Source: Amoebidium appalachense (taxonomy: Eukaryota; Protista; Ichthyosporea). Taken from it: DNA of 64,000 bases. The position numbers and the translations under genes are program-made. The notes under the pieces are model-generated. The model saw nothing but the letters and a program-made list of their open reading frames with translations. It did no database searches and was not told the origin of the DNA. Where the stretch lies: positions 11,808,468 through 11,872,467 of the forward strand of contig CAVNZM010000004.1 in assembly GCA_963693365.1 (NCBI GenBank), given 5' to 3'. Shown in pieces: positions 6,001 to 9,000 of the stretch (positions are counted from its first letter, which is position 1; the number at the start of each line of letters is the position of its first letter).

Positions 6001-9000
6001 GTCTATTGGTGGTATTATCCCCCCCCCCCCTACCGCCCCGCCCCCCTCCCCCCCCCCCCCTCCCCCCCAAAAAAGGCAACCATAGCCACATCTTCGCTGA
6101 CCTCCCCACCCGCCCGGCAGCCCTCCCCCCTTCCCCCCCCCCCCCCCCTCTCCCAGCAGCCCCGCAGCCCCTCCCCCAAACACCTCCCCCCCCTCAGTCC
6201 CCCCCCCCCCTCCCTCTCTCTCTCTCTCTCCCCCCCCCCCCCCCCCCCCCACCACCACCACCACCACCACCACCACCACCTCACCACACACACACACACA
6301 CACACACACACACACACACACACACACACACACACACACACACACACACACACACACACACACACACACACACACACATGGGGAGGGGAGTGGTGGTGTG
6401 GGTGGGGTGCATGTGTGTGTGTGAGGGGGGGGGGGGGGGGGGGAGGGGAGGGAGGGGGATGACGTAAAATAACGACATACCTCATCGATGAGAAACAGGT
6501 CACCCTCCTTCATAGCCGTAACCAATGGCCCATCGTACCACCTAAACAGGGTCATGTACTCCTGCACATCACAGCATACACTCTGCGCCTCCGACTGAAG
6601 TGCCTGGGCCTCAACTACCCCTTGCTGTGTGTGTGGAGGGTGGGTAAGTATGTGTGTGTGAGGATCGTTGGGAGGGGAGGGGGGGGGGGGGGGGGGGGGG
6701 GAGGCTAGAACGAAGGTAGAAGGAGAAGTTGCAATGGGACAGGGTATAAAGAGGATCTTATTACACTAAGACCGTTGTAAGCAATGATACAGGTAGAGCA
6801 TTTTGACTTGTACACTCGCAATGGACGTTAGGGAGACTTCTGGCACCACCTACGTGTTTCACAGTAGTTGAAGTGTTTTTTTTGTTTTGTTTTGTTTTGT
6901 TTTTGACCCGGGGTGGTGGGGCGGGGGTGTGTGTGTGTGTGTGTGTGTGTGTGTGTGTGTGTGTGTGTGTGTGTGTGTGTGTGTGTGTGTGTGTGTGTGT
7001 GTGTGTGTGTGTGTGTGTGGGCCCCGGAGGGAGGGGGGGGGGGGGGGGGGGGCTGTACCTGAGCTGCTTGTATGATTGCCTTTTGCAGTTTTTCCACGTC
7101 AGCAGCAAGAGACTGCATAGGGGCATCCTCTGACAGCGGCACTGTGGGCCCAAACTTCATCAGCACACAAGTCACAGTGGGGTGTGTGTGTGTGTGTAAG
7201 TGTGTGTGTGTGTTGGGGGGCGCGGGAAGAGAGAGAGAGTGGGGGGGGGGGGGGGGGGGGGGGGCGCGCACACACCGACACACACCTCCCCCCCTCTCCT
7301 TCCCCCCCCCCCCAAAAAAAACACACACACACACACACACACACATACCTGCTGCTGCCGCCTGAGCCAAAGCCTCCACCGCCAGACATCTCTCCACCAG
7401 AGCAGCCACCCTCTGTCTCAGCACGGGCCCCAAACCTAAACCAAAACACAAAGGTGTGAGCCAAACATAGTTACATGCACACCGCAGCATCAAAATATGG
7501 AATGTGCTCTATTCTTTGATAACCATTCAGGGAGTTGTATCCCGCAATGATTTGTAAGTTATTGTTCATTTTCCAGCAGCTTCGACATATACCTTGACTA
7601 AGAGTCCATTGATACTACCAGCTTCCATATTCTACAAGAGGAGTAGCTTTAGCCCCGGGAGGGGGGGGGGGGGGGGGGGGGTGTTAACCCCATACCCCCC
7701 TTCCAGCTCAAACCCTCCCCTCCCACCCTCTCACCCCAACCCCACCCAAGCAAGCAGTCATATACCCTCTTTGCCTCGTACGGGCCTGAGGCCACCCAGA
7801 AAGTCGGCCGTCTCTGTGTGCTGGTGGCAGTTGAGAATGTGGAGCTTCTGACCGTACAGCGCACCTGCAGAAGGAAGGGGGGGTTTGAATGCGTCAAAAA
7901 GTACGAAGTACACCAGAACAAACGGATAACACGATGTAGAATGCAAGCCATACATAAAGAGTATGCATAATAAGCAGAGCCCATCCTCAGGGGGGGCCCA
8001 CGTCATCCACAGTACCCGAGTTTCGACCTATTCACCTCGTTGACGAAACCCAACTCAGATACTCTTTCACGGGGGAAAGGAAGAGCATGGTTGTTTAGAA
8101 CACAGTTGGAGTAATCTCTATAGCCCCGGAAGGCGGTCTCCTCTCCTGAGTTTCATGTCCATTGTGCAAGAGGTGATGAGGGAAACAGGTGGTGCGGTGG
8201 TGGTGGTGGTACGTGCGGGGGGGGGGGGAAGGGGCTTATACCGAGCAACTGGCAGACTGTTGTTTTGCCGCAGCCCGTCTCACCGACCAATAAAATGGGC
8301 TCCTTGTGCTCGACACAGCGCTGGGCCAGCACCAGGGTTAGAAATATAATAGACCGGCGTGCAACATGTAGTTATAGAACTGGAATCAAGCGCAACTTAC
8401 AATAAAAGTTTTATCCTCGGAAGGGAGTGCAAACCAAGAAATGGGTGGTGTCTTTTCTCTTTCCCTCTATAAGAAACACATATGCTGCATTGCTCGACTC
8501 CTCTGCTAATCTACCCCTGAACCCGACAAGACCTATAGGTGGAAAGAGAAGAATGGAGACTAGGACATACACAATGGTAAGGAAGGGCTTGATGCAAAGC
8601 AGGGGAAGGGTGAATGTGCAAGGGGAGGGCGGGGAGGGGGTAGGGGAGGGGGGGAGGGGGAGGGGGGGGGGGGGCAATACCTCAACGATGGTGAGAAGGC
8701 GCTTCATTGCTTTTGTCCAGACGAGAGTCTTGAACGGCCACAGTGGGTGGCTGGGGCCAGTGGCAGCACCAATAGACTCCTGCAAAAATTAGCCTTATTA
8801 GGCAACTGTGTGCGAGAATCCTCTAAACCCAAATGCAAGGAGGTTTCAGGTAAGGTCGTCGGTAAAAAGTTCTCTCGTTTCCCTATAAGTGGTTAAGAAC
8901 TTTCACATCACAAGTATCTTAACCCCCCCCCCCCCCCCGTCCTTATCCTTTTCCTTCATTCCTGCTTTGTTTCATTTTTCTCGCCAGGTCTCACTACTCC

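What the first reader, a model, noticed from the sequence alone, without database searches (positions are those of the whole stretch)
7971..8063. Hammerhead ribozyme core in scrambled (non-circularly permuted) order at the 5' end of a repeat family
Seen: on the minus strand, copies A (7971-8063), B (24195-24287) and E (45895-45988) contain the three hammerhead strands X=[stem III-GUU-stem I], Z=[stem II-GAAA-stem III] and Y=[stem I-CUGAGGA-stem II]. Their order is X-Z-Y, whereas types I/II/III are all rotations of X-Y-Z. All three stems covary between subfamilies. Stem III: two U-G pairs in A are U-A in E, and an A-U is G-C. Stem I: GGG/CCC in A, GGAG/CUCC in E. Stem II: UGAAUAGGUC versus UAAGGGGUC, both pairing with the GGC(U)CUGCUUA segment. 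Copy F varies at the free N7 position (CUGACGA). The G-U pairs only work on the minus strand, implying selection at the RNA level. Established: the hammerhead consensus; from memory, natural non-circular hammerhead permutations have been reported (verify). Inference: an active pseudoknotted ribozyme. Caveats: U17 is suboptimal and could pair with A14, 1-2 extra nt follow A9, stem I is only 3-4 bp, and a competing GGGCCC/GGGCUC hairpin could sequester CUGAGGA.
Basis: partly seen in the sequence, partly recalled or inferred. Interest (0 to 1): 0.9.

Follow-up and report, generated by a model that had tools for sequence, protein, structure and literature searches.

The report
Core-split hammerhead in protist retroelement tails
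These repeats carry all the parts of a hammerhead self-cutting RNA in a scrambled order, likely folded with the catalytic core itself split between two distant strands, a wiring that published Naiad jumping genes also show and that would explain why they were reported to lack this ribozyme; cutting is predicted, not tested.

Summary
The hammerhead parts are real. Copies A, B and E hold UH, GAAA and CUGAGGA in the order S-G-C, with stems III and I (0 of 20,000 shuffles reach this). That order is published (type SGC, Eckert 2023). The motif is not at the family's 5' end: A and B are 5'-truncated. Stem II is better formed by an upstream strand (46016-46011 in E, canonical G10.1-C11.1) than by the bases after A9, which pair in a separate helix. 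With a hairpin and a stem I/II clamp helix, this gives 34 extra pairs in E (0 of 10,000 shuffles). The core is thus opened between A9 and G10.1: a circular permutation of type CSG. I read the same layout, with unrelated sequence, in 8 published Naiad Penelope-like consensi and 20 metagenome loci; 8 other Naiads carry intact CSG. The family has a fixed 3' end, 5' truncation and poly-C targets, in introns of a probable unicellular holozoan. No autonomous element was seen; cleavage is untested. I found no paper describing this layout. This scan noted it before in other genomes.

The parts
45797..46175 (-). Copy E, the longest copy in the window, between poly-C tracts, inside a spliced intron of an SRPK kinase gene (sense strand); its 5' limit is inferred from the poly-C flank only
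46042..46053 (-). E: 5' strand of helix X (8 bp distal with 45893-45900; 3 bp proximal with 45904-45906), clamps the bases that follow A9
   Evidence: distal part 0.98, proximal part 0.19 in the nested ensemble
46018..46040 (-). E: hairpin H (9 bp) directly 5' of G10.1
   Evidence: 0.96
46011..46016 (-). E: proposed 5' strand of stem II (G10.1 = 46016), pairs with 45949-45954
46003..46010 (-). E: 5' strand of helix Y (stem I/stem II clamp, pairs with 45921-45928)
45976..45989 (-). E: block S: stem III strand 45989-45981, U17 45980, predicted cut 45980/45979, stem I strand 45979-45976
45963..45972 (-). E: 10-nt palindrome in the stem I-stem II linker (the A-type majority also has a 10-nt palindrome there)
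   Evidence: variant at 8042
45937..45954 (-). E: block G: stem II strand 45954-45949, G12-A15.1 45948-45945, stem III strand to 45937
45908..45918 (-). E: stem I strand 45918-45915 and core CUGAGGA 45914-45908
45893..45906 (-).
7877..8070 (-). Copy A, 5'-truncated, in a midasin intron (sense). Block S 8063-8049, cut site 8052/8051, block G 8030-8011, core 7990-7984; lacks the upstream stem II strand, H, and the 5' strands of X and Y
24101..24287 (-). Copy B, 5'-truncated as A; cut site 24275/24274
24934..25060 (-). Copy C, truncated, keeps only the CUGAGGA block and the 3' tail
15050..15181 (-). Copy D, E-type subfamily (about 97% identical to E), truncated
18275..18400 (-). Copy F, diverged, N7 = C, truncated
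25685..25782 (-). Copy G, 3' tail only
61285..61420 (-). Copy H, diverged; the linker remnant (61406-61397) is joined to the post-core strand, so the core is deleted
48986..49034 (-). Copy I, short 3' end remnant (weak match)
47110..47199 (-). Copy J, degenerate remnant (weak match)

Best explanation
The repeats are 5'-truncated copies of what is likely the 3' tail of a Penelope-like retroelement (Naiad/Chlamys kind), and the tail holds hammerhead parts that are predicted to fold into a self-cutting ribozyme whose core is split between A9 and G10.1. Strand order in the full form (copy E): X' - hairpin H - stem II 5' strand - Y' - stem III/UH/stem I - linker - stem II/GAAA/stem III - Y - stem I/CUGAGGA - X. 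Helix X and hairpin H stand where the A9-G10.1 bond normally is, and helix Y ties stems I and II together as in type SGC/CSG. This equals a type-CSG hammerhead re-opened inside its core block. Shown: sequence, pairing potential, truncation pattern, poly-C junctions, recurrence of the layout. Inferred: (1) the RNA is copied by target-primed reverse transcription into (C)n tracts from a fixed site about 110 nt 3' of the core and often stops early; (2) the templates were uncut, since A, B and E span the cut site; (3) the ribozyme cuts slowly or with protein help, because a hairpin can hide CUGAGGA and helix X forms last, and it serves to release unit-length element RNA from tandem or read-through transcripts; (4) truncated copies such as A and B are crippled or weak.
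For: Core and stems I and III far above chance. In E, unconstrained folding recovers the distal part of X, H, Y and III and leaves the upstream stem II strand free. II+Y+H+X total 34 bp against at most 33 in 10,000 shuffles of the upstream 96 nt. The A-type upstream consensus in loose ends keeps the fold with compensatory changes against E: helix Y position 5 is U-G versus A-U, and in run X1 stem II is GACCUA/UAGGUC versus GACCCU/GGGGUC. The same layout with unrelated sequence was read by eye in 8 Naiad consensi of PMC8557442 File S5. In 20 of 120 metagenome loci, upstream stem II pairs in 90 of 100 cells and a local one in 20-48 of 100. There, 91.6% of 935 cells pair, with subfamily-level double changes in X, Y and I. 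Fixed 3' end and variable 5' ends in the window and in those loci. (C)n targeting and an AA-(C)n 3' junction as in Chlamys consensi. A tested Penelope-like element inserts from uncut RNA and its hammerhead needs protein (PMC11167929).
Against: No cleavage data. Only one whole copy (E) is in the window and no genome is held, so covariation inside this family rests on unphased read consensus. The upstream consensus of runs X3 and X8 (GACCCA) mismatches the majority 3' strand at one pair and fits only a 4-6% variant at 8029. A 6-bp upstream partner alone arises in 2518 of 5000 shuffles, and the loose descriptor in 197 of 5000; the 34-bp score was designed after the fold was seen. The proximal part of X is only 3 bp (0.19), stem I is 3-4 bp, and U17 is a poor cut-site base. 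In alignment A1, stems II and III show no double change, and the count of pairs with double changes is not above shuffles (133 of 500). A covariance model of those loci does not find E, so kinship with Naiads is by layout only. No reverse transcriptase was found in 99 window ORFs or 24 ORFs beside the loci. The 3' ends of Chlamys-1 to -4 show no such core by eye.
Confidence: 0.7

Rival explanations
1. Plain type-SGC hammerhead: stem II is made by the bases after CUGAGGA, so the 93-nt unit is self-sufficient and A and B are active.
For: Local pairing of 4/6/6 bp exists in A/B/E. A U after A9 is a known variant (pattern files of PMC10085705), and a sliding G bulge could stand in for the second extra base. 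It may give weak activity in truncated copies.
Against: Needs 2 extra nt. Duplex energy is -2.6 (A) and -5.6 (E) against -9.0 for the upstream strand, and the strand is occupied by helix X in E. The local option is absent in the 20 Naiad-like loci. Published SGC linkers are about 3 nt, here 14 nt or more.
Confidence: 0.12
2. The fold is conserved but no longer cuts: a hammerhead-derived scaffold kept as a binding site for the element's protein or as a signal for reverse transcription.
For: All three longer copies span the cut site. No pile-up of molecule ends was listed (contigs only). E sits sense in an intron that is spliced in a transcriptome protein. U17 and a hairpin over CUGAGGA are unfavourable.
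Against: Catalytic bases are intact in E and in the Naiad consensi read across several phyla. The intact-core relatives (type CSG) were shown to cut (PMC10085705). Uncut templates are also the rule for a cutting Penelope hammerhead.
Confidence: 0.12
3. A tRNA-derived SINE whose polymerase III A and B boxes mimic blocks S and G by chance.
For: One-mismatch matches to recalled A-box and B-box consensus at 8061 and 8028 (A) and at 45989 and 45952 (E).
Against: The boxes are internal, with shared sequence further 5'. They are 21 nt apart (about 32 in tRNA, recalled) and pair with each other in a way tRNA does not. No tRNA gene is called. This reading explains neither CUGAnGA, stem I, X, H and Y, nor the Naiad parallels, which lack the boxes.
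Confidence: 0.04

Closest known systems
Type-CSG hammerhead ribozymes (Eckert et al. 2023, PMC10085705; read: main text parts 1-6 of 8, supplement parts 1 and 8, passages on CSG)
   Same: Same cyclic block order, same helix clamping stems I and II, same core bases; shown to self-cleave in vitro.
   Different: CSG keeps CUGAnGA joined to G10.1. Here the chain ends fall between A9 and G10.1 and two extra helices (X, H) fill the gap, which that paper assumed not to occur. Only two CSG sequences were known, from soil DNA.
Type-SGC hammerheads (HRIMA-1 and variants; same paper)
   Same: Linear order UH, GAAA, CUGAnGA; U after A9; clamp helix.
   Different: Found only in metatranscriptomes, with stem II made locally and a linker of about 3 nt. 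Their search pattern fixed N7=U and a linker of at most 8 nt, so it would miss this family.
Naiad and Chlamys Penelope-like elements (Craig et al. 2021, PMC8557442; seen: passages, supplement parts 1, 2, 28, 29 and motif hits)
   Same: Microsatellite targeting ((C)n in Chlamys), non-autonomous derivatives sharing 3' ends, and 3' tails in which I read the split form (8 consensi) or intact CSG (8 consensi). The paper reported no canonical hammerhead but flagged 'HHR_core' and 'HHR_half_core' cases.
   Different: No sequence homology detected to the one Naiad-like family tested, and no RT-EN ORF seen. The host is probably a unicellular holozoan, from which neither clade was listed. It combines a Chlamys-like target with a Naiad-like ribozyme.
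Type-I hammerheads in the pLTRs of canonical Penelope-like elements and non-LTR retrozymes (PMC4209133 parts 1-2 of 4; PMC11167929 parts 1-2 of 4; bioRxiv 10.64898/2026.07.22.740005 parts 1-2 of 5)
   Same: Hammerhead near the element's 3' end, extra base after A9, dispersed truncated copies, low or protein-assisted activity.
   Different: Those are circularly permuted type-I folds with a three-way junction; this one is pseudoknotted with a long stem III and a split core.

Membership tests
Hammerhead ribozyme | Core bases CUGAnGA, GAAA, UH with G10.1-C11.1 and A15.1-U16.1 | tested here: met
   Copy E; H17 is U
Hammerhead ribozyme | Stems I, II and III flanking the core | tested here: met
   E: 4, 6 and 9 bp; A and B lack the upstream stem II strand
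Hammerhead ribozyme | Site-specific self-cleavage after H17 | not testable with these tools
   No assay; contigs cannot show RNA ends
Hammerhead types I/II/III (Rfam models) | Circular order S-C-G; match to Rfam models | tested here: not met
   No hammerhead family among the 150 of 151 window matches listed at E<=5, nor in the 1 match for 45780-46180
Type-SGC hammerhead | Order S, G, C | tested here: met
Type-SGC hammerhead | Block C unbroken (stem II strand follows A9 within 1-2 nt) | tested here: inconclusive
   A weak local pairing exists, but the upstream strand fits better in E and is the only option in related loci
Type-CSG hammerhead | Order C, S, G with an intact block C | tested here: not met
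   CUGAGGA lies 3' of S and G; only the stem II strand lies 5'
Type-SGC/CSG hammerhead | Helix joining the distal ends of stems I and II | tested here: met
   Helix Y, 8 bp in E; 8 bp with one double change in the A-type consensus
Naiad/Chlamys Penelope-like element | ORF with N-terminal GIY-YIG endonuclease and RT | tested here: inconclusive
   None in 99 of 159 window ORFs scanned; no genome held
Naiad/Chlamys Penelope-like element | Fixed 3' end, 5' truncation, microsatellite target | tested here: met
   10 of 10 copies end at a C-rich tract, with staggered 5' ends
Naiad/Chlamys Penelope-like element | Tandem or partial-tandem (pLTR) arrangement | tested here: inconclusive
   None in the window; a few 'goes back' joints in single contigs
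tRNA-derived SINE | tRNA-like head with A and B boxes at the 5' end | tested here: not met
   Box-like motifs are internal and 21 nt apart; ARAGORN finds nothing

The most novel reading that the evidence does not exclude
A catalytically active hammerhead can be opened inside its core, between A9 and G10.1, and rebuilt with two inserted helices. This knotted CSG-family ribozyme is the missing ribozyme of N-terminal-endonuclease Penelope-like elements, was present before animals split from their unicellular relatives, and sits in many thousands of copies in this genome.
Probability: 0.5. Interest if true: 0.87.

Novelty: new variant of a known kind. Interest (0 to 1): 0.76.

Why it matters
It breaks an explicit assumption of the permutation scheme (CUGAnGA must be followed by stem II), so there are more natural hammerhead topologies than the six proposed, and current descriptors miss a large class. 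It offers an answer to why Naiads were reported to lack hammerheads, and gives the two orphan type-CSG sequences a likely home in retroelements. It places non-circularly permuted hammerheads in a cellular genome outside animals. One transcription assay with strand-swap mutants tests it, and an insertion point inside the core would be useful for ribozyme switch design.

Tried and rejected
Rfam: no hammerhead match. Family-specific pattern in metagenome contigs: 0 hits. Looser pattern in viral contigs: 42 loci, none with stem I above 2 bp, so all chance. Second metagenome pattern: 100 of 120 loci were not of the family; one of them (L131) passed minimal stems by chance. Covariance model R1 (nested helices only) gave 7 weak window hits, none at the element. 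The split-core descriptor caught only 4 of the 20 family loci. Folding z-scores of the short regions are not significant (-0.6 to -1.4); long E gives -2.07. No variant of 3% or more at core positions, but only 15 of about 194 positions vary, so this is not evidence of selection. Expression: no RNA holder listed; X9 is only guessed to be RNA. A distal extension of stem I, which I first read by eye, clashes with helix Y and was dropped (my test of it was also mis-registered). A C/D snoRNA reading (UGAUGA and CUGA motifs) was dropped: no Rfam support, and the population is 5'-truncated and high-copy. No earlier notes for this genome or sequence. Literature searches without a paper on this layout: (open-access library only). 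Read depth over copy E and its upstream part is not available, so E's 5' limit and the variation in its subfamily remain open.

Full report
Setting. The window is eukaryotic, intron-rich DNA full of poly-C/G and CA repeats; no genome is held. It contains a midasin gene on the minus strand (exons mapped from 3 to about 24,800 with homologues) and an SRPK kinase gene (13 exon blocks, 54,701 to 44,905, matching protein P0122 almost letter for letter). Apart from P0122 itself, the 120 listed SRPK relatives are animal, unnamed, or one EukProt entry with a CFRG identifier (50% over 86% of the length; I recall this prefix as an ichthyosporean's). Midasin is about equally far from animals and fungi. 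The host is therefore probably a unicellular holozoan; this is an inference, and no tree was built.

The observation. Copies A, B and E carry UH, GAAA and CUGAGGA in that order on the minus strand, with stem III of 11, 12 and 9 bp and stem I of 3, 3 and 4 bp. A scanner for all six block orders found only these three hits with at least 12 bp in 64 kb. 0 of 20,000 shuffles of either region reached the observed totals, and 30 shuffled windows gave at most 14 bp. The stem III and stem I differences between A and E are as stated, and a variant at 8017 in run X1 turns another G-U into A-U. Rfam has no hammerhead match. The order is that of type SGC in Eckert et al. 2023 (PMC10085705), found there only in metatranscriptomes.

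The family. Ten copies lie in the window, eight strong and two weak. All are on the minus strand, all end at the same point against a C-rich tract, and their 5' ends are staggered. Laying four runs on copy A placed 5991, 1852, 4605 and 123 contigs on it, almost all within the element, so the family is very abundant (depth is not a copy number). Loose ends beyond 8070 in the three DNA runs read like the sequence upstream of the ribozyme in E, so the motif is internal and A and B are truncated. All three longer copies span the predicted cut site.

Stem II re-read. Craig et al. 2021 (PMC8557442) report that Chlamys elements target (C)n and that Naiads lack canonical hammerheads but sometimes have half cores 35-50 nt apart on either side. 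I searched their consensus file for core motifs (motif-limited, read by eye, not all 54 Naiads). Eight Naiad 3' ends have GAAA before CUGAnGA, but their stem II partner lies upstream of the cut site, directly after a hairpin, which follows a strand that pairs with the bases after A9. These are three Acropora, two Octopus, and three whose headers I did not see; by file order a ctenophore, Morbakka and a crustacean. One Acropora consensus has a mismatch in stem II. Eight others (seven nematode by header or file order, one spider) are intact type CSG, like the two validated CSG sequences. Copy E has every helix of the split form: X (8+3 bp), H (9 bp), upstream stem II (6 bp, G10.1-C11.1), Y (8 bp), III and I. 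Unconstrained folding recovers the distal part of X, H, Y and III. The A-type loose-end consensus keeps Y with one double change against E and, in run X1, stem II with two. In X3 and X8 it fits only the minor 8029 variant, and the phase is unknown.

Independent loci. A degenerate core pattern returned 120 metagenome loci (7 of 64 parts scanned). Twenty, from two assemblies, form one family that matches the Acropora Naiad tail by eye. In them the upstream stem II pairs in 90 of 100 cells and any local one in 20-48 of 100. The seven-helix structure pairs in 91.6% of 935 cells, with subfamily-level double changes in X, Y and I and none in II or III; slid controls pair in 27-46%. The number of doubly changed pairs is not above shuffles (133 of 500). 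They too share a 3' end and vary at the 5' end. No RT was found beside them (0 of 24 ORFs), and a model built from them does not detect E, so the link to the window family is architectural, not by sequence.

Mechanism. The best fit is the 3' tail of a Naiad/Chlamys-type Penelope-like element or a non-autonomous derivative. Two (C)n-targeting Chlamys consensi end in AA-(C)n like most copies here, though I saw no core in the tails of Chlamys-1 to -4. Copies would arise by target-primed reverse transcription from a fixed site, mostly stopping early. They come from uncut RNA, as shown for an anole element whose hammerhead also needs protein (PMC11167929). The ribozyme would release unit-length RNA from tandem or read-through transcripts (model of PMC4209133). 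These steps are inferred.

Novelty. Non-circular permutation is known. An opening inside block C with inserted helices, and permuted hammerheads in Naiads or in a protist genome, were not found in ten library searches (open-access only; bioRxiv supplements not visible). After reaching this reading I found that the scan had reported the same layout in at least three other genomes (20 findings, 8 shown); these are unchecked notes and not support. What this window adds is a probable non-animal host, a poly-C target, and a sequence-independent example that keeps every helix. Verdict: a real feature, a new variant of a known ribozyme, activity untested.

Noticed in passing
PMC8557442 File S5, nematode and spider Naiad 3' ends: Eight consensi carry intact type-CSG hammerheads (stem I 4-6, II 4-5, III 6-12 bp, clamp helix 9-16 bp, by eye); type CSG was known from two soil sequences only.
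   Followed up: partly
window, all ten copies: All lie on the minus strand, sense to midasin and SRPK. The strand bias of C-runs explains this in midasin (101:25) but not in SRPK (18:21); the sample is small.
   Followed up: partly
window 61285-61420 (minus): Copy H joins the linker remnant directly to the post-core strand, a clean loss of about 50 nt of ribozyme core.
   Followed up: no
window 45963-45972 and 8037-8046 (minus): Both subfamilies have a different perfect 10-nt palindrome in the stem I-stem II linker (A-type majority base at 8042); a possible dimerisation site.
   Followed up: no
window 45992-45998 with 45929-45937 (minus): Tandem G-A pairs and a 3-nt bulge between stem III and helix Y could form a kink-turn in E and in the Octopus Naiads, but not clearly in the A-type; read by eye after a lead from earlier notes.
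   Followed up: partly
table 5c, between 8023 and 8013: One contig in each of two runs has telomere-like repeats inserted inside the element.
   Followed up: no
window 31091-32642: Three diverged direct repeats of about 230 bp (74-90% identical), unrelated to this family.
   Followed up: no
window 41571-41760: Imperfect 80-bp inverted repeat, MITE-like.
   Followed up: no
window 38819-39934 (minus) and 59892-61118 (minus): A 372-codon open frame with a weak PDZ match, and long open frames that look leucine-rich-repeat-like by eye.
   Followed up: no
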